From an uncultured Dehalococcoidales bacterium (GTDB lineage Bacteria > Chloroflexota > Dehalococcoidia > GIF9 > AB-539-J10), in the NCBI GenBank assembly GCA_964586515.1, contig CAZPGJ010000001.1, forward strand, positions 394,560 through 458,559: a stretch of 64,000 bases of DNA, written 5' to 3'. The notes under the pieces were generated by a model. That model was not told the DNA's origin. It saw only the letters and a list, made by a program, of their open reading frames with translations, and did not search any database. Numbering within the stretch: the first letter of the stretch is position 1; every line of letters begins with the position of its first letter. Below are positions 38,667 through 56,581 of this stretch, one piece after another. The translations under genes were made by a program, and so were the position numbers.

Positions 38667-38862
38667 CGGTTGTCCTTTTGTATTAAGCTATACCGGATTA
38701 TACCCGTTGGTGCTCAATATTTATAGTATCGCCGGCAAATGTGCTAGCGCCATGACGCAGGCAGTAACTCATCTCATAATTATCGCGCTAAACTTATCAA
38801 CTTGGTTCAACTAACATATATCAGCTATAATTAGGCTATCTCGGTAGAGGGAGAAAGTTGGC

Positions 38863-39756: not shown

Positions 39757-39852
39757 TCAGTCCCGTATTAACAGGTATTGCTGTCCTCAGTCGCGATTGG
39801 GCAGTTTGTGTCATCATGTTTGCCAAACTATATGGTATAATCAAGTTCAAAC

Positions 39853-40197
39853 TTGAAAAACACCGTGGACCTCAAGTCACTGATAGCATACTTTATAATT
39901 GGCGGCCTTATAGTCGCGGTTGTGACCTATTTTGGAAGTCGGGGGAGCAGTCTGCTGGCTGTTTTCATTGCTTTCTTCCCCAGTACCAGTCTGATAACCA
40001 TGGTCACCATATATCTTGCCGGCGGAACAGGGCCGACCGTTTCTTATGCTAAGAGCATGCTGATACTACTGCCTGCCTGGCTATTGTACGTCATTGGCAT
40101 CGTTTTTCTTCTGCCTCGTTTGGGACTGGTAGCGTCGATTCTGATAAGCATTGTAGCCTATGCGGCAGCAGCGTTTCTCACCATGAGATTAGCATAG
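39853..40197 (+). CDS. small 4-TM membrane protein (DUF3147-like)
   Basis: 114 aa, four hydrophobic helices. Confidence 0.35.
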   Translation: MKNTVDLKSLIAYFIIGGLIVAVVTYFGSRGSSLLAVFIAFFPSTSLITMVTIYLAGGTGPTVSYAKSMLILLPAWLLYVIGIVFLLPRLGLVASILISIVAYAAAAFLTMRLA

Positions 40198-40208
40198 TCA
40201 GCTGGTCG

Positions 40209-40607
40209 GTGGGTCAAATTCCCGGGACGCTGTGCCAATCGGGTATTATTTCCACGCGAATACCGCTTTCATGGGGGGTCTGTTCGATTTTGGTGTATGC
40301 CCGATTCCGTTCTTTTTGTTTGACGCCCGGTTTCCGCGGTGCTAAATTCCGCTCTGTGTCCAAAAGTTACGGCAGGGTTGGTATTGCAATAGGCTTTCTC
40401 CTTTTCTTCGCCGGCGCCCTGGATGCGCGGGACCATTACGGATTTTGGGCCACATTTTCGATTATGCTTGGCCTATTCTCTATTGTATTTGGCGCAAGCT
40501 TTGGTGTCGGTGACAAACGCCAAAAAGAAGTTGCACGCCGCGTGAGTCTTGGTTTCCTCGGAGCCGCTTTAGTTTTTCTGGCCATCGCATTAGCGACCCA
40601 ATCCTGA
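40209..40607 (+). CDS. small membrane protein (tandem paralogue 1; true start probably internal/non-ATG)
   Basis: C-terminal SLGFLGAALVFLAIALATQS paralogous to next gene; 5' end of track ORF overlaps a repeat copy. Confidence 0.3.
   Translation: MGQIPGTLCQSGIISTRIPLSWGVCSILVYARFRSFCLTPGFRGAKFRSVSKSYGRVGIAIGFLLFFAGALDARDHYGFWATFSIMLGLFSIVFGASFGVGDKRQKEVARRVSLGFLGAALVFLAIALATQS
40216..40264 (+). repeat. cassette-boundary repeat, copy 15 (degenerate)
   Basis: aaattcccgggacgctgtgccaatcgggtattatttccacgcgaatacc. Confidence 0.45.
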
Positions 40608-40610
40608 ATT

Positions 40611-40895
40611 TTGATACAAAAATATAAGAATGGCTTCAATTCTATGACTAAAATTGCCGACAAGGTTGCTATTGCAGCGGGTATTATCTTTTTCTTATCC
40701 GCGGCTGAAGAACTATGGCTACATTCGAGGATTCTGGCCACATCTGATATTCTACTTGGCATAGGCCTTATTCTAGGTGGCGTGAGCCTTAGTCGCAGCG
40801 GCGTACGTAAAAAAGTCACGCGCGGTTTGAGTTTTGGTTTCCTCGGAGCTGGCATAGTTTTTCTTGGCATCTGGTTAGCGGCAAATGTACCTTAA
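40611..40895 (+). CDS. small membrane protein (tandem paralogue 2)
   Basis: GLSFGFLGAGIVFLGIWLAANVP; intergenic tgatacaa...gcttcaatt motif repeated after both genes. Confidence 0.35.
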   Translation: MIQKYKNGFNSMTKIADKVAIAAGIIFFLSAAEELWLHSRILATSDILLGIGLILGGVSLSRSGVRKKVTRGLSFGFLGAGIVFLGIWLAANVP

Positions 40896-40973
40896 ACTTT
40901 GATACAAGAAACATAACAGTAGCTTCAATTTCCTTTCAACAGTAGTGGCGAAGCGTGGTAATCTCTGCTTAAG

Positions 40974-41090
40974 TCTCCCCCTTAAGATAAGGGGGAGAAA
41001 AGGGGGTTATAAATGCTGTATGGTAGGCGTCGTAACTCCCCTGAGCCCCTCTTATCCCTTCGGCAGGCTCTAAGAGGGGGAGAAAAGGGA
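40974..41090. repeat. GC-hairpin palindromic repeat unit (second copy)
   Basis: tcccccttaagataagggggagaaaagggggtta...cccctcttatccc...taagagggggag; ~85% identical at ends to 13329..13468. Confidence 0.5.
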
Positions 41091-41139
41091 AGAATTTGAC
41101 AGTGCCATGTAGGCCGTCTAAAGTGTAAGTCAGTGAGTT

Positions 41140-42183
41140 GTGCCGCGTTCACTCACGAGGCTCTTAACATCTATGGAAGCAGGATACGTTGCGCTATACC
41201 ACTCCGGCGAACTGGAGCGTCGTGCGCGGGCGCTTGAGGCCCGATTAGCCTCCTGCGACATCTGCCCCCGGGAGTGTAGAGTCAATAGATTACAAAACGA
41301 ACGCGGCTATTGCCATTCCGGGCGTCTCCCTATAGTCTCGGCGGTCTGCGCTCATCATGGCGAGGAGCCGGCTCTTTCCGGGGCCAGAGGGTCGGGGACG
41401 GTCTTCTTCGGCAACTGCAATATGAGATGCGTTTACTGCCAGAACTACCAGATAAGCCAGGACTGGAAAAAGCAAAAATCGAAGGAAATGGACTGCCACA
41501 CCCTGGCGGAAAGGATGCTCTACCTTCAGGATGGGTTGGGCTGCCACAATATCAACTTTGTTTCGCCGTCCCATTTTGTTCCCCAGCTCCTGCGGGCGGT
41601 CGTGGAAGCGGTGCCCATGGGGCTGCGGGTGCCTCTGGTCTACAACACCGGCGGCTATGATTCCGTCGCTTCTCTCGAAGAGCTGGACGGTGTCATAAGT
41701 ATCTACCTGCCCGATTTGAGATATGCCTCCGACAGGTGGGCCAGGAAATTCTCGCATGCCCCGCATTATGTAACGCGGGCCCGCCAGGCAATTAAGGAGA
41801 TGTATCGCCAGGTTGGAGACCTGGTGGTAGATGAGTCCGGCCTGGCACAAAAAGGACTGATAGTGCGGCATCTCATTCTGCCCAACGGTCTGGCCGGCAG
41901 CGAGGAATCGCTGGCCTGGCTTATCCGGGAGCTTTCTCCCGTGGTGACGGTCAGCATAATGTCTCAATACAAGCCGGTGCACCGGGCACCGCGAATACCG
42001 CTGCTTTCCCGGAAGATCACCGCTGATGAGCATGAAGCGGTCCTCCGGCTGCTAGCCGACCTGGGAATAGAGAACGGCTGGGTGCAGGAAATGGGGGCGG
42101 CGGAAGAGTATCTCCCTGATTTTGAACGAGAAGGCCACCCTTTCTCCCCGTCGAATTCCCGGGACACCATCCTTCACTTGTGA
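41140..42183 (+). CDS. radical SAM enzyme (PflX-like, COG1313-type)
   Basis: 347 aa; N-terminal CDICPRECRVNR..GYCHSG plus radical-SAM CNMRCVYCQN cluster. Confidence 0.65.
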   Translation: MPRSLTRLLTSMEAGYVALYHSGELERRARALEARLASCDICPRECRVNRLQNERGYCHSGRLPIVSAVCAHHGEEPALSGARGSGTVFFGNCNMRCVYCQNYQISQDWKKQKSKEMDCHTLAERMLYLQDGLGCHNINFVSPSHFVPQLLRAVVEAVPMGLRVPLVYNTGGYDSVASLEELDGVISIYLPDLRYASDRWARKFSHAPHYVTRARQAIKEMYRQVGDLVVDESGLAQKGLIVRHLILPNGLAGSEESLAWLIRELSPVVTVSIMSQYKPVHRAPRIPLLSRKITADEHEAVLRLLADLGIENGWVQEMGAAEEYLPDFEREGHPFSPSNSRDTILHL

Positions 42184-42228
42184 AGGGTCAGGCCTGCCAC
42201 AAATTAGGTATTATGTCTCCAGAATAAA
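42162..42228 (+). repeat. cassette-boundary repeat, copy 16 (long form, overlaps 3' end of radical SAM gene)
   Basis: gaattcccgggacaccatccttcacttgtgaagggtcaggcctgccacaaattaggtattatgtctccagaataaacc. Confidence 0.65.
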
Positions 42229-42231
42229 CCA

Positions 42232-42290
42232 TCCTGCTTGAAGCCTAGGCACACCGCGCCTGCTTAAACTTTTTGACGTAGTGCTTGGCC
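42232..42290 (+). repeat. TTTTTAACAGG-family element, 3' part only
   Basis: ccatcctgcttgaagcctaggcacaccgcgcctgcttaaactttttgacg. Confidence 0.45.
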
Positions 42291-42363
42291 GGAGCACAAC
42301 AATCAGAGTACTTCCGAGGTATTGACATATTGTGCTATAATACTTACATAGGAGGTAATTATT

Positions 42364-43185
42364 ATGGCACAAACTATAAGAACTCTGGGCGATAAGGGCA
42401 GCAACCTCCTGACCGGATTATCACGCCAGGGGAAGAGACTTTTTACTTTCATGGATGCCACAGAAGTCTACGGTAAAAGCGATGGTGGACTTCATAAGCT
42501 TTTGCATACGCTGGTCAAAAGGCGGTGGCTTCAGCGTGTGGAAAAAGGCAAATACCTGATTCTCCCCTTTGAAGCTGGCCGCGAGCGTGAATGGACTGAA
42601 CACGAGTTCATTATTGCTTCCTATCTGATTAACCCCTACTACATAGGATTTCGAAGTGCATTGAACTACTACGGTTACACAGAGCAGGTCAGCCGGGCTG
42701 TCTTTATAGCATCGACACACCGCAAGATGAAGACGGAACTTGATATCTCAGGGGTAACATATCGATTCGTCCATATGACAGAGAGGAAATTCTTTGGAGA
42801 AACTAAGGTGATCTTGGACGGGTATGGCATAAAAATATCGGAACGTGAGAAGACGATTGTTGATTGCCTTGATAGATTGGAATACTGCGGTGGTATATCA
42901 GAAGTAGCCAAAGCCCTTTCATATGGCCGTGATGAATTCGATTTGGTGAAAATGGTTCATTATGCCGTGAAAAGCGGAAATAAAGCTGTAATCAAACGCC
43001 TGGGTTACCTCTTAGAGCTTCTAAATTTCGAGGCCGGTAATGCCATCAACATACTGCGCGGCAACCTTAGCAGCGGTTATTCCCCATTAGATACTTTGGG
43101 ACACCGGGAAGGCCGCCATATCCAGCGCTGGCGATTGCTAGTAAATGTACCGCAGAATGAAATCTCCCAGTGGCAGGAGCTCTGA
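42364..43185 (+). CDS. AbiEi-family antitoxin (type IV TA / abortive infection)
   Basis: 273 aa; N-terminal wHTH, AbiEi C-domain. Confidence 0.65.
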   Translation: MAQTIRTLGDKGSNLLTGLSRQGKRLFTFMDATEVYGKSDGGLHKLLHTLVKRRWLQRVEKGKYLILPFEAGREREWTEHEFIIASYLINPYYIGFRSALNYYGYTEQVSRAVFIASTHRKMKTELDISGVTYRFVHMTERKFFGETKVILDGYGIKISEREKTIVDCLDRLEYCGGISEVAKALSYGRDEFDLVKMVHYAVKSGNKAVIKRLGYLLELLNFEAGNAINILRGNLSSGYSPLDTLGHREGRHIQRWRLLVNVPQNEISQWQEL

Positions 43186-44012
43186 TGTTATCCAGAGCCG
43201 AACTTCAGAGACTAGCCAATCGGGAGAAGGTAGCTCTGGGCGTATTAGAAAAGGACTACGTGCTTACAGAGGTGCTGAAGGCGTTATTCCAGCTACCGGC
43301 ATTGCGCGAAAGCTTCGTATTCAAAGGTGGCACTGCTCTGCGCAAGGTTTATTTTCCGCGCTGGCGTTATTCAGAAGACCTGGATTTCACCGTCAAATTC
43401 GATATTCCCAAAGAAGAACTTGGACAGAACCTCGATGGCTTGTATCATCAAGTAGAACAAGCCACTCAAATTCGGCTCACTACTAGAATGCTTCACAAGA
43501 CAAATGGCTACGCCCGTATCAGGACTCAATTCTTAGGACCTTTGGCTCATCCGGCTATGATCTACATGGATTTGAGTTTCGATGAACCGTTATGCCTCGA
43601 ACCTCAGTCCCGAAAGGTATTGACTGCACCCTTCCCTGATGAGGAACGAACAGTTCAAGTGTATCCCCTGGAGGAATTAATGGCCGAGAAGATGCGCAGT
43701 TTGGTAGAACGGGGTAAATCAAGGGACTACTACGATGTGTGGAGGCTTCTAAAAGAACAACGCTCCCAGATGAACTTAGAGCTACTGGGAATGGTACTTG
43801 GGAAGAAACTCAGGCATAAGGGACTGAGACTCGGGACTACAGCAGATTTTCTCCCTGAGAATCCAGCCGGAATCAAAAGGTATTGGGAGAAAGACCTTAG
43901 TCAGCAGGTTGCTGCGCTACTACCTCTTGAGAATGTACTTAACGAGCTAAAGCACATGCTTGATAGCTATGTAGCTCCACATTTGACCTTGCAGTCTGGT
44001 GAGCCTCGATAA
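43170..44012 (+). CDS. AbiEii/AbiGii nucleotidyltransferase toxin (DUF1814)
   Basis: 280 aa; FKGGTALRKVYFPRWRYSEDLDF motif; overlaps abiEi stop. Confidence 0.7.
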   Translation: MAGALMLSRAELQRLANREKVALGVLEKDYVLTEVLKALFQLPALRESFVFKGGTALRKVYFPRWRYSEDLDFTVKFDIPKEELGQNLDGLYHQVEQATQIRLTTRMLHKTNGYARIRTQFLGPLAHPAMIYMDLSFDEPLCLEPQSRKVLTAPFPDEERTVQVYPLEELMAEKMRSLVERGKSRDYYDVWRLLKEQRSQMNLELLGMVLGKKLRHKGLRLGTTADFLPENPAGIKRYWEKDLSQQVAALLPLENVLNELKHMLDSYVAPHLTLQSGEPR

Positions 44013-44117
44013 TGCCAGTGCGCAAAAATAAAAAGAGAGGCATTACCTCGGGACCAACCCCTTTGGATGGCCTCTCATCGTGATTATGCCACGAAGTTAA
44101 CATAAACTACATTTTTG

Positions 44118-44250
44118 GCCGGTATTTTTAACAGGAGCAGTAACCTCCCGCGTCATTGCGAGCCCCGACTTGTCGGGGCGTGGCAATCCCCAGGATTGCG
44201 GAGCTGTTTTTTGAAGCGTAAGCGAGCCCATCGCGCCTGCCTAAACCTTT
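44118..44250 (+). repeat. TTTTTAACAGG element interrupted by mini-MITE (44152..44191)
   Basis: ggtatttttaacaggagca|gtaacctcccgcgtcattgcgagccccgacttgtcggggcgtggcaatcccc|aggattgcggagctgttttttgaagcgtaagcgagcccatcgcgcctgcctaaacctttt. Confidence 0.55.
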
Positions 44251-44275
44251 TGCCGATTTGTGACTTCAGCGGGCT

Positions 44276-44336
44276 CAGGAACAAATTGTGCCCTTAAAGA
44301 AAGGACGCGGGCAACACAGCAAATACCCTCCATATG
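44276..44336 (+). pseudogene. remnant of a second ORF6N-domain gene (~20 codons)
   Basis: gtgcccttaaagaaaggacgcgggcaacacagcaaataccctccatatgctttcact = ...[17 protein letters not shown], near-identical to 16390..16440. Confidence 0.5.
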
Positions 44337-44595
44337 CTTTCACTTCTTCCCCCTCTTAAGATAAGAGGGGCTAGGCCTGCCCGCTTGCCTTCGCTGAAGC
44401 TTTTGCGCAAGCAGGCCGAACACCTGCCCGCCAGGGCTCGGCAGGCGGGAATTCTTTGGCAGGCGGGGGAGTTATGAAGGAAGCCCGGATGTATCGGGAC
44501 TCCTCAGAATGACATGACTAAACACTGTCGATGGGCTTGACAAATACCTGTCTATGGTGTATCTTCATTGTAGATACTATGAATGGAGGTTTGAT

Positions 44596-44838
44596 ATGAA
44601 GACGCGTGTTCAGAAATGGGGTAACAGTCTCGCTTTGCGCATTCCGAAATCCTTCGCTGATGAAGTGGGACTCCGGAAAGAGACATCCGTCGAAGTATCG
44701 CTGGCAGACGGGAAAATCGTTGTCACGCGGCTAACTAAGCCGGAGCTGACCCTCGAACAGCTCCTATCAAAGGTCACCAAAGATAACTTGCATCACGAGG
44801 TTGATACCGGCTCTGCCGTGGGGAACGAAACGTGGTAG
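44596..44838 (+). CDS. mazE: MazE/PemI-type antitoxin (SpoVT/AbrB fold)
   Basis: From MKTRVQKWGNSLALRIPKSFADEVGLRKETSVEV. Confidence 0.65.
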   Translation: MKTRVQKWGNSLALRIPKSFADEVGLRKETSVEVSLADGKIVVTRLTKPELTLEQLLSKVTKDNLHHEVDTGSAVGNETW

Positions 44839-45179
44839 GCCACCGCACTTTCGTGCCTCGTTGCGGAGATGTGGTGTGGATTAGCTTAAATCCGCAAGCA
44901 GGTCACGAACAAGCCGGACGCCGTCCGGCCGTGGTGCTGTCACCACAAAGCTATAACAGCAAGGTAGGACTGGCCATCCTTTGTCCAATAACCAGCCAGC
45001 CCAAAGGCTACCCTTTCGAGGTTCTTCTTCCCGCCGGGTTACCGGTGGCAGGAGCAATATTATCTGACCAGGTTAAGAGTCTGGATTGGCGCGCTCGACA
45101 TGCCGAATTGATATGCACTTTGCCAACCGAGACAATCTCGGAGGCGCTCCAGAAGCTGGCAACGTTGTTATCGGAGTAA
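44832..45179 (+). CDS. mazF: MazF/PemK-family toxin
   Basis: 115 aa; GDVVWISLNPQAGHEQAGRRPAVVLS; overlaps mazE stop. Confidence 0.7.
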   Translation: MVGHRTFVPRCGDVVWISLNPQAGHEQAGRRPAVVLSPQSYNSKVGLAILCPITSQPKGYPFEVLLPAGLPVAGAILSDQVKSLDWRARHAELICTLPTETISEALQKLATLLSE

Positions 45180-45202
45180 GAAAATGCATCGCCCACTGCT
45201 TT

Positions 45203-45275
45203 GCCAGTATTTTTAACAGGAGCATCTGCTCGAAGCCTGCGGACATCGTGCCCGTCTAAACCTTTTGACGACTTG
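45203..45275 (+). repeat. TTTTTAACAGGAGCA boundary element
   Basis: ccagtatttttaacaggagcatctgctcgaagcctgcggacatcgtgcccgtctaaaccttttgacg. Confidence 0.55.
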
Positions 45276-45355
45276 TGTAATGTTAAGCTGATCTTGACAT
45301 CTCCGTCGTATTGCGTAATATTGGACGTCATGATGAAACACTGGAGCGCCCGTAG

Positions 45356-45646
<291 letters not shown>

Positions 45647-45693
45647 TCTCTGTCTTGTAGCCTTCTTAGCCATCGTTTTGATTGCATCGTTTT

Positions 45694-45770
45694 CCCGGTA
45701 TTTTTAACAGGAGCATCTGCTTGAAGCCTGAGGACGTCGCACCTGTCTAAACTTTTTGGCGGAATGTGCA
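45694..45770 (+). repeat. TTTTTAACAGGAGCA boundary element
   Basis: cccggtatttttaacaggagcatctgcttgaagcctgaggacgtcgcacctgtctaaactttttggcg. Confidence 0.55.
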
Positions 45771-45976
45771 ACCCGAATGTAGGACCATGCAAAACTTTAT
45801 GTTAAGGAGAGAATAAATTAGGTGACTAACCCTTGATATATGTAAATACCTATTAAGTCGTATCTACAAAAAGTTTACCAGATTTAAACTTAGATTAAAA
45901 GATTCCACCAAAAGTACTTGACATTCTGTCTCGTTTAAGTATAATTTAAGTATCAATATATACTGGATTAAGACTT

Positions 45977-46231
45977 ATGAAAGAGCAGAATAAGGACAGA
46001 AAAAGACTAAAATTAGTCCCATTTGGGGATGCATATATACAAAGAAGTAGGCGTCTCGCTATCCCTGAGATCTTGTTGCAAAACGTTGAGTTGCGGGAGG
46101 GAGATGCAGTCAAGTTATTTCTTGATGTTGGGGATATTACTGGTGAGAAGGCGATTGTGGTAATGAAATCAAAAAATCCTGACAAAATTAAGGCCAAAGG
46201 CCGCAGGCAAAAAAGAGGAGAGACTACTTGA
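45977..46231 (+). CDS. AbrB/SpoVT-like small DNA-binding protein, possible controller of downstream R-M gene
   Basis: 84 aa; RRLAIPEILLQNVELREGDAVKLFLDVGDITGEKAIVV resembles AbrB-N swapped hairpin; stop overlaps TTG start of 46228 gene; AT-rich. Confidence 0.4.
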   Translation: MKEQNKDRKRLKLVPFGDAYIQRSRRLAIPEILLQNVELREGDAVKLFLDVGDITGEKAIVVMKSKNPDKIKAKGRRQKRGETT

Positions 46232-48924
46232 TTTATCCTTTGGGTCTTTATTCAGGTGACGCCAGCAATAAGTTTTGTTCTCTCAAGAATCTTCGCAACG
46301 AGAGTGATGTAGAGCAGTTCTTCACTATCCGCTTGCTCAATCATCTGGGATATACTGACGATTTCATTGAAACAAAAACCTCACTAAAAGGTGAACTGTT
46401 AGGAAAGGGTACTAGACGTAGGACATATGTTCCTGATTATGTTTGCTATAAAGATAGGCAACATAAGATTCCTCTTCTGGTTGTGGATGCAAAGAGCCCT
46501 CTTGAAAGTGCTGAGGCAGGCGCAAGTGATGCACAAGAATATGCTGCAGTTTTACACCGACGTCTAGATGACCCAAAACCAGAAATCTATTGCATAGGCA
46601 CAAATGGTACTCGCACTATCGTAAAGCACTATGATAGAGAAAAACCAGAGTTTGACCTTACTTTTGAAGAGTTTGTTGATGGGAATCCTAAGTTCGCTGA
46701 CTTTATTTCCGTGCTTTCGAGAGCATCACTATCGGAAGTTAGTTTCCCGGCAGGTGCAATATTTGAGTTCAGGAAACCGGGCCTTGGCGAAGTAAGAGGC
46801 ATCTTCCAAGCCTGCCACAATATTATATGGCGTAAGGAAAAAATGTCCCCCCAAGCCGCCTTCTATGAATTCTGCAAAATTATGTTTATTAAACTTCGAG
46901 AGGATAAGAAGCTAAGAGGAGACCCAGAACTAAGTCAGTTGATTCGTAACGGACGTCCATTGCCGACGGATAGAGTATTGTTTAACCTTCATATGATAGT
47001 ACAAAGTGAGGATGCAGACCCTAATCCGGTTAACTCTATGCTTTTTAAGCGTCTCAGGGAAGAATTAGAACATGAAATACGAATTGGACGTAAGAAGCGT
47101 ATTTTTGAGCCTGATGAAGAGATAAGACTGAAAGCTACTACAGTTAAAGAAGTCGTGAGGCACCTTGAACACCACGACCTTTATGGTATAGATGAAGATT
47201 TAAATGGTCGATTATTTGAAACTTTCTTAAGTTCCACCATGAGAGGGCCTGAACTAGGTCAATTTTTTACACCGCGTTCTGTAGTTGAATTTATGAGCGA
47301 CCTTGTTGATTTACAAGTGTCACTTCAATATGTCGATTCGGTAATTGACCTATGCTGTGGCACTGGAGGCTTCCTTATAGAGGCGATGGCAAAAATGGCA
47401 GAAAAGGTAAACAGACCCCCGCTGGCAACTGTGCTTGGAAGTGGTGAAAAGGAAAAGATACTACAAAAGATAAGAGATGAGCAGCTACTAGGAATAGATG
47501 CAGGAAAAGACCCCCCTATAGCTAGGATTGCTAGAATCAACATGTATTTACATGGGGATGGAGGTAGCCACATCTACTTTGCAGACGCTCTAGATAAGGC
47601 GACTGCAATAGAGGAAGGTGTGGAACCTGAATTAAGAACAGAACGAGAGGAACTTCGTCAAATTCTTGTTACTGGCGGACATAAGTTTGATGTCGCCCTA
47701 ACTAATCCTCCATTTGCTATGCGTTATAAACGTTCTGAGGCTGATGAACGAAGCATACTTGAACAATACAAACTAGGGGAATATATTGCTAAGAAGGGTT
47801 CTCGAAAACAAAGAGCTTCTTTAAAGTCAAATATTATGTTCTTGGAACGGTATTGTGACTTGTTAAAGCCTGGAGGCAGACTTTGTACTATAATTGATGA
47901 AAGTGTGCTAAATACGGATACAGATAAAGAAGCCAGATACTTTCTGCTGCATAACTTCCTAGTGAGAGCCGTGATTAGTTTGCCCCGATGGGCATTTTTT
48001 GAAGCAGGCTCAAATGTAAAGACCTCTATTCTATTCTTGACCAAAAAACATGAAACGTCTGAAGAGCAACCTCACACGTTCTATGCACGCTGTGAGAACA
48101 TAGGTTATGACTATCAGAAACCAGACCCTACAAAAAATGAACTACCTATGATTCTAACCGCATACAGAGCATATCAGAAAGACGGGAAAATACTTGAGAA
48201 GCAAAAAACTCATTGGAGCGACAAGACTCGGCTCTTCTCCACGAAGTTAACATCAGACATAAGACGAATCGACTTTGAATACCTTGACCCTCGGCATGAA
48301 GTAATGCTAGAGAAATTGCAGGAAATAGCCACCACCCGAAACTATGAGATAGCTAACCTTGATGATTTATGTGAGGTGTTCCGGGGTAAGACTGCAGAAC
48401 AATATGTTACTGATGGCATCCCTATAATTAAACTACGAAACGTAACGAACGAGGGTATAAATTGGGAAGATATAGATTTTGTGCTTAGAGACTTTTTTGA
48501 TGATAATCCTGATTGCCATCTAAAGCCTTTAGATATTTTGCTTACCTCTACAGGAGTGGGAACTATCGGTAGGGTCGATATGTTGGATAGGGACATACCC
48601 TGTATGACAGATGGGCATGTTACTGTGTTAAGGGTAAAGGAACAAACTAAGGTTCTGCCCCGATATATCCTTTATTACCTCCGGTCAACTTTAGGACAAA
48701 TGCAAATGGAGAAATATACTGTAGGCAGTACTGGCCAAACTGAGCTCAATAGAGATGATGTTAAGGCAATAAAGGTTGTTTATCCTGAGTCAGCCGATGA
48801 CCAATCAAAATTAGCTGATGCTGCACACAGTATAGAGGCTGTCGCAGTCAGAGCAAGAAATGAATATAGGAATAACTTAGCAATGGCTAGACTGAAATTT
48901 GCTGAATCGTTGGGTTTGTCATAA
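46228..48924 (+). CDS. single-chain Type IIG/IIL-like restriction-modification enzyme (nuclease + gamma-class N6-MTase + TRD)
   Basis: 898 aa; N-terminal PD-(D/E)xK (VPDYVCY...VVDAKS), MTase motif I LCCGTGGFL and motif IV LTNPPF, C-terminal HsdS-like TRD; AGAGGAG SD before TTG start. Confidence 0.65.
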   Translation: MIYPLGLYSGDASNKFCSLKNLRNESDVEQFFTIRLLNHLGYTDDFIETKTSLKGELLGKGTRRRTYVPDYVCYKDRQHKIPLLVVDAKSPLESAEAGASDAQEYAAVLHRRLDDPKPEIYCIGTNGTRTIVKHYDREKPEFDLTFEEFVDGNPKFADFISVLSRASLSEVSFPAGAIFEFRKPGLGEVRGIFQACHNIIWRKEKMSPQAAFYEFCKIMFIKLREDKKLRGDPELSQLIRNGRPLPTDRVLFNLHMIVQSEDADPNPVNSMLFKRLREELEHEIRIGRKKRIFEPDEEIRLKATTVKEVVRHLEHHDLYGIDEDLNGRLFETFLSSTMRGPELGQFFTPRSVVEFMSDLVDLQVSLQYVDSVIDLCCGTGGFLIEAMAKMAEKVNRPPLATVLGSGEKEKILQKIRDEQLLGIDAGKDPPIARIARINMYLHGDGGSHIYFADALDKATAIEEGVEPELRTEREELRQILVTGGHKFDVALTNPPFAMRYKRSEADERSILEQYKLGEYIAKKGSRKQRASLKSNIMFLERYCDLLKPGGRLCTIIDESVLNTDTDKEARYFLLHNFLVRAVISLPRWAFFEAGSNVKTSILFLTKKHETSEEQPHTFYARCENIGYDYQKPDPTKNELPMILTAYRAYQKDGKILEKQKTHWSDKTRLFSTKLTSDIRRIDFEYLDPRHEVMLEKLQEIATTRNYEIANLDDLCEVFRGKTAEQYVTDGIPIIKLRNVTNEGINWEDIDFVLRDFFDDNPDCHLKPLDILLTSTGVGTIGRVDMLDRDIPCMTDGHVTVLRVKEQTKVLPRYILYYLRSTLGQMQMEKYTVGSTGQTELNRDDVKAIKVVYPESADDQSKLADAAHSIEAVAVRARNEYRNNLAMARLKFAESLGLS

Positions 48925-48978
48925 TGTTGCTTAAGCAATTTTCCTAGCAAAAACCCTAACTTCCCCAAATTGCCCAAG

Positions 48979-49049
48979 AATTCCGGAATTCCAGGGGCAC
49001 CATACCAATCAGGCCTGCTACAAATCAGGTATTATGCCCCCAGAATACC
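48979..49049 (+). repeat. cassette-boundary repeat, copy 17 (variant B, duplicated GAATTCC 5' arm)
   Basis: gaattccggaattccaggggcaccataccaatcaggcctgctacaaatcaggtattatgcccccagaatacc. Confidence 0.7.
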
Positions 49050-49193
49050 ACGAACTCATCTTCGGTCGAGGGTGGTGATGGCACCCTTGACTTGACTTTG
49101 GTCTGAGCCTTTGATACCTTAGACTTTGTCATGGTTGCTAGGGGGTGCACTACTAGACTCACTTAAATCTCGTACATACCCTCAGGGCGAATC

Positions 49194-50015
49194 TTGCAAG
49201 TTCTGGGGGTGACGGAAGGAAATATGACTCGGCAATTGCATATCACCATCGAAGGAAGACTAGGCCAAATTCCCCTTAATACACTAGCGACTATGGCACG
49301 AAACTCCTGTGATATTTTGGAGGAGTTGGATAATGTGACCTCTGCGAAGCCCGGTGGGACTATGGAATGGTTTGTCTCGGGCATCTCCACTGAGGCAAGT
49401 TTGACGGTCACCATCGAAGCAAAGCCAAAACTAAAGGATGTAGATTATACAGGGAGGGTAGCAGAATTATTTGTTGATGGATTGGCGCATATTGAGAAGG
49501 AGCATACCACTCCGCCGTATTTTTCTGACTATGGTCTCCGTAAAACTCATAACATTGCCAAAACCCTTCGTAAGAATGGAGCAGAAGCTATCAGAGTGGA
49601 AGACATTGAACGCAAAGCCAGTGGCCTTATAAAGGCAGATGTGGCGGACCCTCTGAAAAAACTCATTAGTATTCGGTATCAAGAGATAGGTTCAGTAGAG
49701 GGTACACTTGAAATGATTTCTATTCACGGCTATCCACGTACAACTGTTTATCATTCTATTACACATCGGTCTGTTAGCTGCAAATTTGCCCCCAGATTGT
49801 TAGAGATAGTTAAAGAAGGGCTGGGAAATCGTGTGATTGTACACGGCATAGTTTATTTCAACTATGTGCATGAACCGATAAGAGTGGATGCCGAGAGGAT
49901 AGAAATAATGCCTCAAGAGGAGGAACTTCCTACGGCAAAAGACTTACGTGGTATGGTTCCTGATTTCACGGGGGATATGAAGACTGAAGACTATATTCGG
50001 AGTCTTCGTGAATGA
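49194..50015 (+). CDS. hypothetical protein (no recognisable domain), upstream partner of PIN gene
   Basis: 273 aa (probable start MTRQLHITIEG at 49224); stop overlaps start of PIN gene (ATGA). Confidence 0.45.
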   Translation: MQVLGVTEGNMTRQLHITIEGRLGQIPLNTLATMARNSCDILEELDNVTSAKPGGTMEWFVSGISTEASLTVTIEAKPKLKDVDYTGRVAELFVDGLAHIEKEHTTPPYFSDYGLRKTHNIAKTLRKNGAEAIRVEDIERKASGLIKADVADPLKKLISIRYQEIGSVEGTLEMISIHGYPRTTVYHSITHRSVSCKFAPRLLEIVKEGLGNRVIVHGIVYFNYVHEPIRVDAERIEIMPQEEELPTAKDLRGMVPDFTGDMKTEDYIRSLRE

Positions 50016-50494
50016 CTAACACTATTTATAAACAACCGTATTTGGAGAGTAGCGTTTTTATCGCCCTCATTAAAGGTGAGGTCATAGACGGGGTAGATAG
50101 AGCCGATATTGCTCAACACATTCTTGACGATGCTGCAAGAGGAAGGTGGCCTATTTTCACATCCACATTTACCTTTGCAGAAGTAATCAAAGATCGCAAA
50201 AGACCCTTGTTAACACTGGAGGAAGAAAGGAGAATTGGTGATTATTTCAAACATAAATACATTAAGCCAGTGCTATTAGATAGGGAAGTTGGAGAATCAG
50301 CGAGACGATTAGCTAGAATTTATACTCTACGCCCCGCTGATGCTGTTCACTTGGCAAGTGCTATCCAAGCAAAAGCAGATGAATTGTTGACTTGGGATAG
50401 TGGTAATTTCCCAATTGGTCAAACTATAGAGGGAGTCACAATTAAATTACCATATTGGTTTGGTCAAACTAGGATACCATTGCAACCAAGCTAA
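50012..50494 (+). CDS. PIN-domain nuclease
   Basis: 160 aa; acidic residues in PIN positions: YLESSVFIA, TSTFTFAEV, PADAVHLASA, LLTWDSG. Confidence 0.6.
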   Translation: MTNTIYKQPYLESSVFIALIKGEVIDGVDRADIAQHILDDAARGRWPIFTSTFTFAEVIKDRKRPLLTLEEERRIGDYFKHKYIKPVLLDREVGESARRLARIYTLRPADAVHLASAIQAKADELLTWDSGNFPIGQTIEGVTIKLPYWFGQTRIPLQPS

Positions 50495-50568
50495 TCAAAA
50501 GAACCCCCAATGATAGAATTAGGAAGAGAATAATGTCACTCGCCCTAGCTTCATGTATAGCCCTTTTG

Positions 50569-50632
50569 TAATTCCCGGGACACCATACCAATCAGGCCTA
50601 CTACAAATTAAGTATTATTTTCCCCAAAATAC
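50569..50632 (+). repeat. cassette-boundary repeat, copy 18 (variant B)
   Basis: aattcccgggacaccataccaatcaggcctactacaaattaagtattattttccccaaaatac. Confidence 0.65.
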
Positions 50633-50680
50633 ACGTGAATGACACGCCATTCGCTTTAGCATTAGGTTCAGCGGGTGAAT

Positions 50681-51355
50681 TTAAGCATTCAAGAGGCTAT
50701 TACCGGTGAGCAACAGCACAGCGTTGTCGATTAGCTTTGGTACGGTTGTATTCCAACCATCATCGAGGTATTTCTCCCACATATCTCCCGGACTTTCCAT
50801 CACTTCTAGGGCAAGATGCATAATTTCCATGTACTTTACGCCCGATTCTGCTTCGTACCCATAGAAATATTTGAGTGTATTCTTCGAGTCCATAGGAATA
50901 CACAATTTAGGAAACAAAAAGTGTAGTAGTTTGGAATTAGACACCAGTCTTCCGCCTGTCTTCATCACGTGTAGATTCTCGTAAACGTCGGCTATGCAAT
51001 CAAGTTTCTGTTCGATGCTCCCGTGTTGCCTTTCTACTGCTTCGAGGTTAGACAACTGCGATATACAGACGAAAATACTCTGTTTGAAATCATCGAAGTA
51101 CTTAAGTCTGGCTCCCCGGCTGTTCATGTCCCAGGCCACAAGAGTAGCGTAGACTATCTCCAAATTGTGGTCGTCAGAAATAAAAGATGTGACGGTCCCT
51201 GCGCCAAATCTCAGTACGAGTGTTCGCTTATAGAAGTAAAGGTCTGGGCCAAAACGGCCGTCACGTCCGATTCGGTATAGCCGATTTATATCAGATATTC
51301 TATTCTCTATCGTTGTCTTGATGTCATTCATCTTCTGAGTTCTGTTTTTTATCAT
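50681..51355 (-). CDS. hypothetical protein
   Basis: 224 aa; clean ORF bounded by two repeat copies; no motif recognised. Confidence 0.4.
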   Translation of the reverse strand: MIKNRTQKMNDIKTTIENRISDINRLYRIGRDGRFGPDLYFYKRTLVLRFGAGTVTSFISDDHNLEIVYATLVAWDMNSRGARLKYFDDFKQSIFVCISQLSNLEAVERQHGSIEQKLDCIADVYENLHVMKTGGRLVSNSKLLHFLFPKLCIPMDSKNTLKYFYGYEAESGVKYMEIMHLALEVMESPGDMWEKYLDDGWNTTVPKLIDNAVLLLTGNSLLNA

Positions 51356-51519
51356 ATATGTTTATCTCCTCCAATATGAGCTTTGGTTCAGTCTATGATA
51401 TTCATTACACCGGTCTACGCCAGCGCTCGCCACACGTCAGTCTTAGCAGTCTTTACTAAGTCCATTCGTAACCTGCTAGGTATTATAGCAAGGGATAGCT
51501 GTCTGGTTCATCCTCCACA

Positions 51520-51583
51520 CAATTCCAGGGACACCACCCCAGTCAGGCCTGCTACAAATCAGGTATTATTTCCCCAGAATACC
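51520..51583 (+). repeat. cassette-boundary repeat, copy 19 (variant B)
   Basis: aattccagggacaccaccccagtcaggcctgctacaaatcaggtattatttccccagaatacc. Confidence 0.7.
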
Positions 51584-51706
51584 ACGAAATCAAAGGCGCA
51601 GATGGTGAACTTTGGTTAAGAGTCGAACTCGAATAGGCCGATATCCACGCAGGCAGCAAGCGTATCCATTGGGTCATTTCAAACTGTGACGGGGATGCTT
51701 AGCCGG

Positions 51707-51857
51707 CAAAAAAAGATGCCCCGAGTAACCTCACTTCCTTCACCTGCATCGTCCGGCTCAGCCCTCAGCTTATCCTGTGCCGACCACCGCCAGCACCTTT
51801 CAGCCTCCGCCAAGCTCAACTCTTATGCCGGGTCCCTGCTCGGCTACTCGGGACAAC
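51707..51857 (-). ncRNA. candidate ~150-nt structured small RNA (copy A) with own promoter and U-tail
   Basis: Minus strand: TTGACA(51891-51886)-18-TAGTAT(51867-51862); transcript GUCCCGAGUAGCC...CAGGUGAAGGAAGUGAGGUUACUCGGGGCAUCUUUUUUU; 5' CCCGAGUAG pairs with 3' UUACUCGGG; ~80% identical to copy B with conserved ends and variable middle. Confidence 0.35.
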
Positions 51858-51938
51858 CTTAATACTAGCACATATATAGAACAGTTGTCAAGTCCGCATA
51901 TGTACCAGGACGTCAGTAATGTCATGTGTCGGCACAGG

Positions 51939-52388
51939 TCACTTCTGGGTGAACTCCGGATGGTTCCTTTTCAACCATTCCAGGACCGTAGTGCGAAGCT
52001 TCTTTGCCAGAGCAAGCATCTTCTCAACTTCTTGTTCAGAAACCATGCCCACTCTCTCATAATCAGCGATATTGCGTTTCCTGCGAAAGGTATTAAGCTG
52101 GTCAATGGTCCTGGCATCAAGCTGCATGGTGAAAGCTAGCGACTGGATAGTCCAGTAGTGGTGGCCTTCTTGTGCTGCCCTGTAGCCACTGGCAGCCAGC
52201 GCTACCGTCGCTGCCAGCAAGGCAGCACTGTAAGCGGTGGCGAATCGCCTGTCCGCGCTCAATTCATGTAACTGGGCATCCGCCAGGTCACGGTCAGCCG
52301 CCTTCAGTAGCTCGGCAATGTCGCTACTGCTTGTTTTATGGGCTCTTAACCGCCCGCTTTCCAACCAGCTTTGTAAGCTCGTATTCAT
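51939..52388 (-). CDS. HEPN domain protein (second MNT-HEPN pair)
   Basis: 149 aa; paralogue of 25347..25799 (NAAVQTAKAAL / SAALLAATVAL; RNISDYER / RNIADYER). Confidence 0.6.
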   Translation of the reverse strand: MNTSLQSWLESGRLRAHKTSSSDIAELLKAADRDLADAQLHELSADRRFATAYSAALLAATVALAASGYRAAQEGHHYWTIQSLAFTMQLDARTIDQLNTFRRKRNIADYERVGMVSEQEVEKMLALAKKLRTTVLEWLKRNHPEFTQK

Positions 52389-52953
52389 TGCCTATGAGAA
52401 AGATTTTGTCGCCCTCAAGCACTGTATTGAGGAAATGGTGAGCGTCCTTTATTTTCTGTTTGAATTCAGTGATAGGATATACTACCGGGTTGACTTCGCG
52501 CCCCAGTTTTTGTTCCGCCGGGTTGAGAAGCGAAACCACGTCTTCAAAGGAGATTCTCCCAACTATCATCACGTCAATATCGCTTGTTCTCCTTTCATCG
52601 CCGCTGACGATTGAGCCGAATATGAAAGCAACCTTTATCTGCCCGATACAAGGCGCCAGTGCTGAGCGCAGGACGTCTGCCACACCCACAGTTTTGACAA
52701 TTATTCCATGCAGCTCATTAAAAAGAGGGCTCTGCCGGTTTGCCTGATAATATTTCTGTTTTCCCTCCGTAGTCGAAACAAGAATACCGGTCTCCTCCAG
52801 ATGTGCCAGCTCACGGCTCACATTTGTAGAATCTTCCTCCACTAAGGCGGTAAGTTGGCGGACAAAATAGCGCTGATCTGGATGTGTGAATAACCATCCC
52901 AGCACCTTTGCCCTGAGCTTTGACCCTACAAGTGTTCCTAATATTCCGTTCAT
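52336..52953 (-). CDS. wHTH + minimal nucleotidyltransferase (second copy)
   Basis: 205 aa; GSIVSGDERRTSDIDVMIV; paralogue of 24779..25378. Confidence 0.7.
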   Translation of the reverse strand: MNGILGTLVGSKLRAKVLGWLFTHPDQRYFVRQLTALVEEDSTNVSRELAHLEETGILVSTTEGKQKYYQANRQSPLFNELHGIIVKTVGVADVLRSALAPCIGQIKVAFIFGSIVSGDERRTSDIDVMIVGRISFEDVVSLLNPAEQKLGREVNPVVYPITEFKQKIKDAHHFLNTVLEGDKIFLIGNEYELTKLVGKRAVKSP

Positions 52954-52965
52954 CCTATACGAAAT

Positions 52966-53023
52966 TGCAGTTTTATTTACTGCTATTGCAGTATTTTATA
53001 CTGCAAACCCTTCCGAAGTCAAT
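52966..53023. promoter_or_regulatory. promoter/operator of MNT-HEPN pair 2
   Basis: Minus strand TTGACT-17-ATAAAAT; palindrome TGCAGTATTTTATACTGCA (52988..53006) overlaps -10; second half-site TGCAGTTTTATTTACTGCTATTGCA. Confidence 0.4.
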
Positions 53024-53106
53024 AGTAGTTTCCAGATATTTGCTCCAAATATTGAGTATGTGCTCATTAGAATGAGCGATGACAAAGAAGCCAAGACTTG
53101 GTAGCT

Positions 53107-53152
53107 GGAATTCCGGGGATACCATCCTTCACAAGGTGAAGGATCAGGTCGG
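53107..53152 (+). repeat. cassette-boundary repeat, copy 20 (truncated after hairpin)
   Basis: ggaattccggggataccatccttcacaaggtgaaggatcaggtcgg. Confidence 0.6.
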
Positions 53153-53254
53153 TGAATTTTGGTTAAGAGTCGAACCTGAATAAGCCGATATCCACGCAGG
53201 TATTAGGCCTATTTATCGGGCATTTGAAACTGCGAGAAGGATGCTCAGCTGGCA

Positions 53255-53405
53255 AAAAATAAAACGCCCCGAGTAACCTCACTTCCTTCACCTGCCATCG
53301 TCGAGCCTCATCTTCAGCCTACCTTGCGGCGATTACCATCCCCGCCTTTCAGCTTCCACCAAGCCCGACTCTTATGCCGGGTCCCCGCTTGGCTACTCGG
53401 GACAT
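53255..53405 (-). ncRNA. candidate ~150-nt structured small RNA (copy B)
   Basis: Minus strand TTGACA(53440-53435)-18-TAACAT(53416-53411); same conserved 5' GUCCCGAGUAGCC and 3' CAGGUGAAGGAAGUGAGGUUACUCGGGGCGUUUUAUUUUUU as copy A. Confidence 0.35.
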
Positions 53406-53611
53406 CTTCTATGTTAGCACATCCATAAAACATCTGTCAAGTTTTGTGCGCGGGGGTCGGAGCAACCGGCTTATGGATAACGAGGCCGGCTTTCGTGCAA
53501 CCCCGCCATATTGAGCGATGAGTCCCTTTCATGACTTTTCCCTTGGCGCGATATACAATCTAACGAAGAATTCTTGTGCCAACCCGTTACTTGAGTACGT
53601 AGGAGATAGGA

Positions 53612-54619
53612 TTGCTCTCAGCCATACCTGTACTGTTTGGCTCGCTAATTTCAGTCTTTATTGCCTCGCTTCTTTTTGTTAATGCGCTCGAATGGTTGGG
53701 CAATAAGTTGAACCTGGGTAGCTCATTTGTTGGGGCTGTTTTATCACCAATATTTACCTCCCTGCCCGAGCTAATTGTCATTCTAATAGCTATCTTTTCC
53801 AATATCGGTGAGGCCGGGCAAGAGGTCGGAATAGGGACGATTTTCGGAGAGCCTTTTATGGCATCCAGTTTGTCTTATAGCCTGGTGGGGATTGCCGTTG
53901 TCGTTGGATACCTTGGGAAGAAAAGAACCAGCACTACGCTGGTTATCGATAAAACTCTCTCTATTCCTTATATCTTCGTAATAGTTCTGTTTCCGTTAGT
54001 CCTGATACCGGGGTTCGTACATATAATTTGGGTGAAGTACTTATTCGGTGCAGGGTTTCTGGCGATTTTCATCTTCTATATGCGGTTAATGTACCGGAGA
54101 AGAATGACCGAGGAAATCGGAGAGGTTGAAGATCTTACGTTTGCTAAATTGGCCCCCAAAACACGCTCGCACCCAATGATAGTGTTAGCATTTCAACTTT
54201 CTGTGTCGGTTGTACTACTGTATTTCGGTTCGCGATATCTGGTCTCTTCGGTGGTAGCGATTTCTCAGGGGATTAATGTCAGCCCTTTAGGTTTAGCGAT
54301 GATTATTATTCCGGCGGCAACGGCTATCCCTGAGACTATAACTGCGCTGATCTGGGGATACAGGGGAAAGGATACACTGAGCATTGCCTCTCTGGTTGGT
54401 GAAAAGACTTTATATTCTACTTTCTACCCTGCAATAGGGCTATTTCTTACTTCCTGGGCGCTGGATATTCATGCTATATTCAGCGTCATTGTCACCACCC
54501 TAATTTCATTGATTCTGCTTTGCTACGTCAGGAGGCAACGATTACCCTGGTACAGCCTATTCTTCGGCCTCGCCTTTTTTATAGGTTACGGCGTACTAAT
54601 ATTCCTGTTTAGAATCTAA
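53612..54619 (+). CDS. CaCA-family cation/Ca2+ antiporter (YrbG-like)
   Basis: 335 aa; two alpha-repeat signatures GAVLSPIFTSLPELIVIL and IPAATAIPETITALIWG. Confidence 0.7.
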   Translation: MLSAIPVLFGSLISVFIASLLFVNALEWLGNKLNLGSSFVGAVLSPIFTSLPELIVILIAIFSNIGEAGQEVGIGTIFGEPFMASSLSYSLVGIAVVVGYLGKKRTSTTLVIDKTLSIPYIFVIVLFPLVLIPGFVHIIWVKYLFGAGFLAIFIFYMRLMYRRRMTEEIGEVEDLTFAKLAPKTRSHPMIVLAFQLSVSVVLLYFGSRYLVSSVVAISQGINVSPLGLAMIIIPAATAIPETITALIWGYRGKDTLSIASLVGEKTLYSTFYPAIGLFLTSWALDIHAIFSVIVTTLISLILLCYVRRQRLPWYSLFFGLAFFIGYGVLIFLFRI

Positions 54620-54752
54620 TATGATTCTTAATAAGACATCTTTCCCCGTTGACCAGACTTGGTAATCCTGAAACACTCCGGCTCACGGCTTTACAAAATA
54701 GTGTATTGTGATCGCCAGCGAGTAGCGCACGGAATAGCGTTTGTGCAGCCTG

Positions 54753-54817
54753 GAATTCCAGGGACACCTCCTTCACCTTGTGAAGGACAAGTCAGGCATT
54801 ATGTCCTCAGAATACAG
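54753..54817 (+). repeat. cassette-boundary repeat, copy 21 (variant A)
   Basis: ggaattccagggacacctccttcaccttgtgaaggacaagtcaggcattatgtcctcagaatacagg. Confidence 0.7.
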
Positions 54818-54899
54818 GTGGGTATTTACAACATCGAATGAGGTTACGTGTGCTTGAAGATTCGTTAATACAGGCGTACACTGGATAATCGAGTATAGA

Positions 54900-55364
54900 G
54901 TGGAGGTGTCTCTAATGAAGGCTTTAATAGTATATGACTCAGTTTATGGAAATACGGAGAAAATCGCCAGGGCTATTGCTGAAGCTATTACCCCGTCCGG
55001 TGAGGTCAAGGTACTGCAGGCAGGCGAGGCGAATCCCTCGGAACTGGCATCCAATGACCTTCTCATTTTAGGTTCTCCGACCCATGGGGGCAGGCCGACG
55101 CCGGCGATTCAAGACCTCCTTACCAAAGTCCCCAAGCTTCAAGGTATCAACGTAGCTGCATTCGACACCAGAACCCAGACGAAACTCGTCGGGGTGTTTG
55201 GATATGCTGCTGGACGCATCGCCCGTAATCTGAAAGGAAAGGGCGGTACTCTCATAGCGTCTCCGGTGGGTTTCTTTGTTACAGGTAGCAAAGGTCCGCT
55301 GAAAGAAGGCGAACTAGAGCGGGCTGCAGGTTGGGCCAAGGGAATTTTAGAGAGCAAGAAGTAA
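54900..55364 (+). CDS. flavodoxin-like fold protein (copy 2)
   Basis: 154 aa, ~90% identical to 21438..21908; differs by 3-aa indel (ERS). Confidence 0.7.
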   Translation: MEVSLMKALIVYDSVYGNTEKIARAIAEAITPSGEVKVLQAGEANPSELASNDLLILGSPTHGGRPTPAIQDLLTKVPKLQGINVAAFDTRTQTKLVGVFGYAAGRIARNLKGKGGTLIASPVGFFVTGSKGPLKEGELERAAGWAKGILESKK

Positions 55365-55404
55365 TTTTGTAATGCCCTTCCTCATTTCAACTATACAATT
55401 ACTG

Positions 55405-55467
55405 AATTCCAGGAACACCGTCCTTCACAAGGTGAAGGACAAGTCAGGTATTATGTCCCCAGAATAC
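55405..55467 (+). repeat. cassette-boundary repeat, copy 22 (inverted-loop hairpin)
   Basis: gaattccaggaacaccgtccttcacaaggtgaaggacaagtcaggtattatgtccccagaatac. Confidence 0.7.
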
Positions 55468-55599
55468 TTATGTAGTGAGCCAGAACAAGGACTTGACGGA
55501 ATTGTGGCATATGTTATAATAATGGTGAAAATAGTGGGAAATGGTGCGAAATGGGTTCAACCCACATGACAATTGGATTAATGTGTAAGGGGAAATAAG

Positions 55600-55899
55600 A
55601 TGGCAACTATAATAAAAGATCAAAATCTAGTAAGAGTGGGCAAGCCCGTCACACCGGATTCCAGGAAGCGAGTGGTTTTGCCCAAAACAGTAGTGAAAGA
55701 AGGTATTACCTATTTTATATATCATAATAGCGTTGGGCAGATAGTACTAGATCCACAGGCAAGTATACCTGCTTCTGAGTTATGGGTATTTGAAAATAAA
55801 GACGTTTTAGCCTCGATTGATAAAGGCATACGTGAGTCACTAAATGGGAAAACAATAGACCGTGGCTCATTTGCAAAACACATAAATGACGCACCGTGA
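55600..55899 (+). CDS. antitoxin-like protein (AbrB/MazE-type fold?)
   Basis: 99 aa; LVRVGKPVTPDSRKRVVLPKTVVKEG; overlaps start of downstream RelE/ParE-like gene. Confidence 0.4.
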   Translation: MATIIKDQNLVRVGKPVTPDSRKRVVLPKTVVKEGITYFIYHNSVGQIVLDPQASIPASELWVFENKDVLASIDKGIRESLNGKTIDRGSFAKHINDAP

Positions 55900-56212
55900 G
55901 CTACGTTTTACGCTTGAAGCTGACAAGCAACTAACAATCATTGAGAATGACCCCTCCCTTAAGGATGTACAAAAACAAGTAAGGAAAACTCTAAGATATT
56001 TAGAAACAAATCTCCGCTCAAAATCCTTACAAACCCACGAGTATCAATCACTAACCAGGCGTTATGGCATTAAGGTTTTTGAGGCCTATGTTCAACAGAA
56101 TACGCCGGGGGCTTATAGAGTGTTTTGGCATTACGGGCCGGATGAAATAAGCAAAGACGGAAAGCGAATACCCATTATCACCATCATTGCTATAACGCCT
56201 CACCCCGATTGA
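55886..56212 (+). CDS. RelE/ParE-superfamily toxin
   Basis: 108 aa; ...AYRVFWHYGPDE...IPIITIIAITPH C-terminal pattern. Confidence 0.5.
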   Translation: MTHRELRFTLEADKQLTIIENDPSLKDVQKQVRKTLRYLETNLRSKSLQTHEYQSLTRRYGIKVFEAYVQQNTPGAYRVFWHYGPDEISKDGKRIPIITIIAITPHPD

Positions 56213-56456
56213 CTAATTCCCCACCCTGCCCCAGCAGCTTTCTTATCTATTTCACTCCGCTGCTTTGCCGTTGGCTTATTAGCCCTGGCCTTACTACCTT
56301 TCCGACCACTGCGGCCACTTGCCAAACCTTAATTGTTTTACTACCATATAATCAACAGCGCCAGGGTGAGCAGCCCTGGCCCGACAGTCTCTCTTGTGAA
56401 GGGAGGCTGTTTCTTTTTGAACTGATTCCGCCGCAATATTATGTCTCTTGACCACA

Positions 56457-56500
56457 TAATTCCGAGGACGCCATGCCGGTCAGGCTTACTGCGGATCACG
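56457..56500 (+). repeat. cassette-boundary repeat, copy 23 (truncated variant B) - last copy before argG
   Basis: cataattccgaggacgccatgccggtcaggcttactgcggatcacg; 5' flank cttgaccacataattcc shared with copy 3. Confidence 0.55.
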
Positions 56501-56581
56501 TGTTAAGCTCCTAGGAAATGACCGCAAGCAAATTCCCAGATTCTTCGGTCACTCCGCTCCCTCAGAATGACAAAGAGTGAA

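What the first reader, a model, noticed from the sequence alone, without database searches (positions are those of the whole stretch)
48979..56500. Second repeat-bounded cassette array adjoining argG
Ten further copies of the same repeat (48.9-56.5 kb) bound further units: hypothetical+PIN, a 224-aa hypothetical, MNT-HEPN pair 2, CaCA antiporter, flavodoxin copy 2 and a RelE/ParE-like pair. The last, truncated copy (56457..56500) lies 80 nt from the argG stop, so the array runs right up to the core arg genes. This second array is split from the first by a repeat-poor block (32-48.9 kb) carrying mutS2, Fe-S/radical-SAM genes and AbiE/MazEF, in which only decayed copies (35147, 40216) and one intact copy (42162) occur.
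Basis: seen in the sequence. Interest (0 to 1): 0.6.

Follow-up and report, generated by a model that had tools for sequence, protein, structure and literature searches.

The report
Shuffling gene-cassette array beside argG
Between two arginine-synthesis genes of a sediment Dehalococcoidia bacterium lies a 37-kb row of gene units separated by one 64-base hairpin repeat; related strains carry the same units in different orders, much as in an integron, but the repeat belongs to a different mobile-element family and no integron integrase was found.

Summary
The repeat is real, but 48,979-56,500 holds 7 detectable copies, not 10. The window holds 22-23, all on the + strand and all between argH and argG. 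The "second array" is the argG-proximal end of one continuous array: the "repeat-poor block" consists of units that sit elsewhere in relatives' arrays.

The repeat is not a canonical attC. It lacks the AAC/GTT core, and no integrase lies in the interval. Its two arms match the 25-nt terminal inverted repeat that flanks IS200-like HUH transposase genes (TIRYT, TnpAY1 subclass 2.1) in many other phyla. It is therefore a REPIN/MITE-like arm dimer.

In about 70 of 80 related metagenomic loci, the same co-oriented repeat array starts about 60 nt after argG. Units recur in permuted order but never inverted. Twenty different unit families abut argG, and 36 junction types recur in independent samples.

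The repeat body travels with the unit on its 5' side and its last ~6 nt with the unit on its 3' side. That implies exchange at a fixed point, the same logic as integron cassettes.

The enzyme was not found. A trans-acting TIRYT working on single-stranded hairpins is my inference. Verdict: a dynamic cassette array, confirmed; a new variant of known kinds.

The parts
48985..49049 (+). Repeat copy, variant B (centre ACCAATCAGGCCTGCTAC), intact
   Evidence: nhmmer 63 bits; sequence
49050..50568 (+). Unit: 273-aa protein with no family match (49194-50015) plus PIN-domain protein (50012-50494)
   Evidence: Pfam PIN, E = 2.9e-10; no hit for the 273-aa protein
50569..50628 (+). Repeat copy, variant B
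   Evidence: nhmmer 50 bits
50629..51520 (-). Unit: 224-aa protein of unknown function (50681-51355)
   Evidence: Only sub-threshold DUF2461/TIGR02453 matches
51519..51583 (+). Repeat copy, variant B
   Evidence: nhmmer 60 bits
51584..53107 (-). Unit: MNT-type nucleotidyltransferase with an N-terminal HTH (52336-52953) plus a 149-aa partner (51939-52388)
   Evidence: Pfam Polbeta/NTP_transf_2 and NCBIfam MntA_antitoxin; the partner has no hit
53108..53149 (+). Repeat copy with the left arm and the variant-A hairpin only; the right arm is missing
   Evidence: nhmmer 28 bits, model positions 2-47; sequence
53150..54752 (+). Unit: Na+/Ca2+ exchanger family (CaCA) membrane protein (53612-54619)
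   Evidence: Pfam Na_Ca_ex, E = 3.9e-20
54752..54815 (+). Repeat copy, variant A (central hairpin CCTTCAC-CTT-GTGAAGG)
   Evidence: nhmmer 61 bits
54816..55403 (+). Unit: flavodoxin (54900-55364). A second copy of this unit lies at 21354-21966, and a third lies in the argH-proximal array of a relative (L089).
   Evidence: Pfam Flavodoxin_1; 88-93% DNA identity; the left junction is identical in all three copies
55404..55467 (+). Repeat copy, variant A with the loop inverted (AAG)
   Evidence: nhmmer 65 bits
55468..56456 (+). Unit: three small overlapping ORFs (99, 108 and 80 aa) of unknown function
   Evidence: No Pfam or NCBIfam hit
56457..56514 (+). Terminal, decayed repeat copy, 67 nt from the argG stop codon. 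The same position is occupied by a repeat in about 70 of 80 related loci.
   Evidence: nhmmer 20 bits
56582..57790 (-). argG (argininosuccinate synthase), the fixed anchor of the array
   Evidence: Pfam Arginosuc_synth and its C-terminal domain; an exact protein match on a public contig
19547..48984 (+). The rest of the same array: 16 further repeat copies and their units. These include the 'repeat-poor' block, whose units (31117-35147 mazF/HTH+mutS2+acVLRF1; 35209-40216; 40254-42152 radical SAM) occur at other array positions in relatives.
14400..15746 (-). argH (argininosuccinate lyase), the far boundary of the variable interval
   Evidence: Pfam Lyase_1 + ASL_C2; relatives also have the co-oriented array upstream of argH

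Best explanation
The region is the argG-proximal end of one array of about 37 kb that fills the argG-argH gap in a Dehalococcoidia (Chloroflexota) genome.

The units are separated by a co-oriented imperfect palindrome of about 64 nt. Its two arms are copies of the terminal inverted repeat of TIRYT-type Y1/HUH transposases, so the repeat is a REPIN/MITE-like arm dimer.

Shown: units are exchanged between array positions at these repeats, and the exchange point is fixed about 6 nt from the 3' end of the repeat. A mobile unit is therefore the last ~6 nt of the preceding repeat, then the gene or genes, then the body of the following repeat. This is the same bookkeeping as integron cassettes.

Inferred: a trans-encoded TIRYT (HUH) enzyme cuts and rejoins one strand of the folded repeat. 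The - strand is the likelier substrate because it folds better. This would happen while that strand is single-stranded at the replication fork, excising a unit as a circle and re-inserting it next to another repeat. That would explain why all copies share one orientation.
For: The repeat is real and all copies are co-oriented.

Link to TIRYT transposases:
- The arm motif AATTCCGGGGACACCATACTTAATT occurs in more than 119 genome stretches from many phyla.
- It flanks, in inverted orientation, genes of 220-236 aa that match Pfam Y1_Tnp and carry NHVH and YIELNP motifs.
- This fits the TIRYT/TIRtron description with its GGGGWSAS repeat motif (PMC3733652) and TnpAY1 subclass 2.1 (PMC6006769).

The array is anchored and variable:
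- About 70 of 80 related loci have the array starting right after argG. Every copy is opposite to argG, none lies in the ~6.6 kb beyond argJ, and argH is never within 10 kb.
- 183 inter-repeat segments fall into 53 families. Their order is permuted, and 0 of 1198 similarity edges are inverted.
- There are 116 junction types. 36 recur in at least 2 samples, and 20 families abut argG.
- Direct comparison with the window: relative L084 has radical SAM, methyltransferase and AMP-binding units in the reverse order but the same orientation.

The exchange point is fixed:
- Unit homology stops exactly at the 5' end of the repeat and about 5-6 nt inside its 3' end.
- After removing near-duplicate loci, the nearest relative of a repeat body shares the 5'-side unit 13.3 times against 3.5 +/- 1.9 expected (0 of 300 permutations reach this). 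It shares the 3'-side unit 5.5 times against 3.5, which is not significant.
- The last 6 nt share the 3'-side unit 8.9 times against 3.7 +/- 1.2 (0 of 300).
- Worked example: unit 6 inserted between units 1 and 2 (L148 compared with L160/L161).

Homologous recombination is a poor fit: the longest exact run shared by window copies has a median of 11 nt.

Hairpin: 17 of 22 arm positions pair. The mismatches are conserved, and three become G.T wobbles on the - strand.
Against: - No TIRYT or other Y1_Tnp gene, and no other recombinase, was found in the window or in about 1 Mb of related Dehalococcoidia sequence.
- None of the 120 best TIRYT homologues is labelled Dehalococcoidia.
- The linkage signal, though significant, is carried by a minority of repeats. 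Most repeat bodies are too diverged or too homogenised to assign.
- The flavodoxin unit keeps its 5' junction, but its 3' junction differs by 0, +38 or +57 nt among three copies.
- Arm pairing is maintained mainly by sequence conservation, with few compensatory changes.
- Housekeeping-type genes (mutS2, xseAB) sit among the units.
- The comparisons rest on metagenome assemblies.
- The link to replication direction is inferred only from core-gene orientation and GC skew.
Confidence: 0.45

Rival explanations
1. It is a true integron array without a nearby integrase (a CALIN or sedentary chromosomal integron). The repeats would be highly divergent attC sites recombined by an IntI encoded elsewhere in the genome.
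For: - Co-oriented imperfect palindromes of attC-like length bound the units.
- The repeat body travels with the upstream unit, and the crossover lies ~6 nt from the 3' end, the same geometry as G|TTRRRY.
- Many units are toxin-antitoxin modules or encode proteins with no family match.
- The array sits at a fixed chromosomal site with variable content.
Against: - The consensus GGAATTCC...CAGAATACC has no RYYYAAC/GTTRRRY core.
- The arms match the terminal repeats of Y1/HUH transposases.
- No tyrosine recombinase lies anywhere between argH and argG, or at either end of the interval in relatives.
- The only integrase found near an array is a tRNA-Leu island integrase.
- Only 62% of ORFs are co-oriented with the repeat.
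- The IntegronFinder attC covariance model could not be run.
Confidence: 0.12
2. The repeats are passive REPIN/MITE insertions in intergenic DNA. The permutations arise from ordinary homologous recombination, unequal crossing-over or strain-to-strain transfer between them, with no dedicated site-specific enzyme.
For: - The repeat is a member of a mobile repeat family.
- Some window copies share exact runs of 25-45 nt.
- Repeats in some loci resemble each other more than they resemble repeats elsewhere, and the window genome has spread its own variant A to orthologous positions, which suggests gene conversion.
- Exchange between direct repeats preserves orientation, as observed.
- Core-type genes sit among the units.
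Against: - The asymmetric linkage puts breakpoints at one end of the repeat rather than spreading them across it. Even the 3' half of the body follows the 5'-side unit.
- The median shared exact run is only 11 nt.
- Permutations that keep all units need excision and re-insertion, not just deletion.
Confidence: 0.3
3. The repeats are fixed regulatory or structural elements (terminators, mRNA stabilisers or protein-binding sites) between genes, and the array only looks cassette-like.
For: - They lie within tens of nucleotides of gene ends and can form hairpins.
- REP-type elements are reported to have such roles (PMC3733652).
Against: - Orientation is constant whatever the direction of the neighbouring genes: 48 ORFs are co-oriented and 30 opposite.
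- No Rfam family matches.
- No copy occurs in the 27 kb of core flanks of the window or in the regions beyond argJ in relatives.
- Order and content change between strains.
Confidence: 0.05

Closest known systems
Integron cassette arrays (IntI integrase with attC sites; sedentary chromosomal integrons and CALINs)
   Same: - A fixed chromosomal platform with a long array of small units.
- Co-oriented imperfect palindromes of about 60 nt at every boundary.
- The site travels with the upstream gene, and the crossover lies ~6 nt from its 3' end.
- Toxin-antitoxin modules and proteins with no family match make up much of the cargo.
- Strain-to-strain permutation of the units.
   Different: - No IntI or attI.
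- No AAC/GTT core.
- The arms belong to a Y1/HUH transposase repeat family.
- Weak ORF orientation bias (62%).
- Multi-gene units and housekeeping-type units (mutS2, xseAB) are included.
TIRtrons: TIRYT transposases with their terminal-repeat families (Di Nocera 2013, PMC3733652); TnpAY1 subclass 2.1 (Quentin 2018, PMC6006769)
   Same: - The arm sequence carries the GGGGWSAS-type motif.
- In other phyla the same 25-nt arm flanks NHVH/YIELNP Y1 transposase genes in inverted orientation.
- Arms occur as dimers and clusters, as that paper describes.
   Different: - Those papers describe scattered repeats, dimers and clusters. They do not describe ordered, co-oriented arrays that bound exchangeable gene units.
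- No TIRYT gene has yet been tied to this Dehalococcoidia clade.
REPINs mobilised by RAYT/TnpA_REP (Bertels & Rainey 2011, PMC3116915; Ton-Hoang 2012, PMC3333891)
   Same: - Two inverted arms plus a spacer form a hairpin.
- It is non-autonomous, and the presumed enzyme is a single-copy, trans-acting HUH protein.
- Copies are intergenic.
   Different: - No GT[AG]G tag at the foot of the hairpin.
- The individual arms are not palindromic.
- Copies are concentrated in one interval and strictly co-oriented.
- REPINs are not known to carry genes between them.
IS200/IS605 'peel and paste' single-strand transposition (IS608 TnpA)
   Same: - It is the proposed chemistry: hairpin recognition on one strand, a circular single-stranded intermediate, and an orientation tied to the lagging-strand template.
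   Different: - IS608 has distinct left and right ends and encodes its own transposase.
- Here both cuts would use the same kind of site, and the cargo is arbitrary host genes.

Membership tests
Integron (IntI/attC) | An integron integrase gene (a tyrosine recombinase with the IntI-specific insertion) next to the array | tested here: not met
   Pfam on essentially all ORFs of 200 aa or more between argH and argG gave no integrase. A jackhmmer search seeded with XerD recalled from memory found none in the window or in the arg loci. Neither end of the interval carries one in relatives.
Integron (IntI/attC) | attC core sites: 5'-RYYYAAC at one end and GTTRRRY-3' at the other | tested here: not met
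   The consensus of 253 copies is (G)GAATTCCAGGGACACC...GGTATTATGTCCCCAGAATACC, with no AAC/GTT pair on either strand.
Integron (IntI/attC) | An imperfect palindrome of about 55-140 nt that folds as a single strand and has conserved unpaired bases | tested here: met
   The element is 64-66 nt. 17 of 22 arm positions pair, with conserved non-pairs at 5 positions. Pairing is 0.75 on the - strand against 0.23-0.51 for slid controls.
Integron (IntI/attC) | A cassette is a gene plus its own downstream site, with the crossover a few nucleotides from the 3' end of the site | tested here: met
   Linkage tests, and the worked example.
Integron (IntI/attC) | A match to the attC covariance model of IntegronFinder | not testable with these tools
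   That model is not in Rfam. The Rfam scan of the window returned nothing.
TIRtron / TIRYT repeat family (TnpAY1 subclass 2.1) | The repeat carries the GGGGWSAS motif | tested here: met
   In other phyla the arm has GGGGACAC. The window's left arm is mostly AGGGACAC or GGGGACRC, and the reverse complement of the right arm is GGGGACAT. Each deviates by at most 1 nt.
TIRtron / TIRYT repeat family (TnpAY1 subclass 2.1) | The same repeat flanks, in inverted orientation, a Y1 transposase gene with NHVH and YIELNP motifs and a C-terminal extension | tested here: met
   Seen at L016, L028 and L061 and in partial form at about 12 further loci, all in other phyla. The window repeat aligns to those arms.
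TIRtron / TIRYT repeat family (TnpAY1 subclass 2.1) | A cognate TIRYT gene in the same genome | not testable with these tools
   Only 64 kb of this genome is available. None was found in it or in about 1 Mb of related loci.
REPIN / RAYT (classical REP) | A GT[AG]G tetranucleotide at the foot of each REP hairpin, with each REP itself palindromic | tested here: not met
   The arms lack the tag and are not self-complementary. A GTAG occurs only in the central loop on the - strand.
REPIN / RAYT (classical REP) | Two inverted arms plus a spacer that form one long hairpin, present in many intergenic copies | tested here: met
   There are 22-23 copies in the window and up to 9 per 10 kb in relatives.

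The most novel reading that the evidence does not exclude
A second, independently evolved 'integron': a chromosomal gene-capture and shuffling platform in which a Y1/HUH single-strand transposase (TIRYT) and hairpin dimers of its terminal repeat take the place of IntI and attC. It would be fixed at the argG-argH locus across a whole clade of sediment Dehalococcoidia, and possibly present in other TIRYT-bearing phyla. Co-oriented arm arrays in a Desulfotignum locus (L015) and a Brocadiaceae locus (L052) hint at this.
Probability: 0.35. Interest if true: 0.9.

Novelty: new variant of a known kind. Interest (0 to 1): 0.72.

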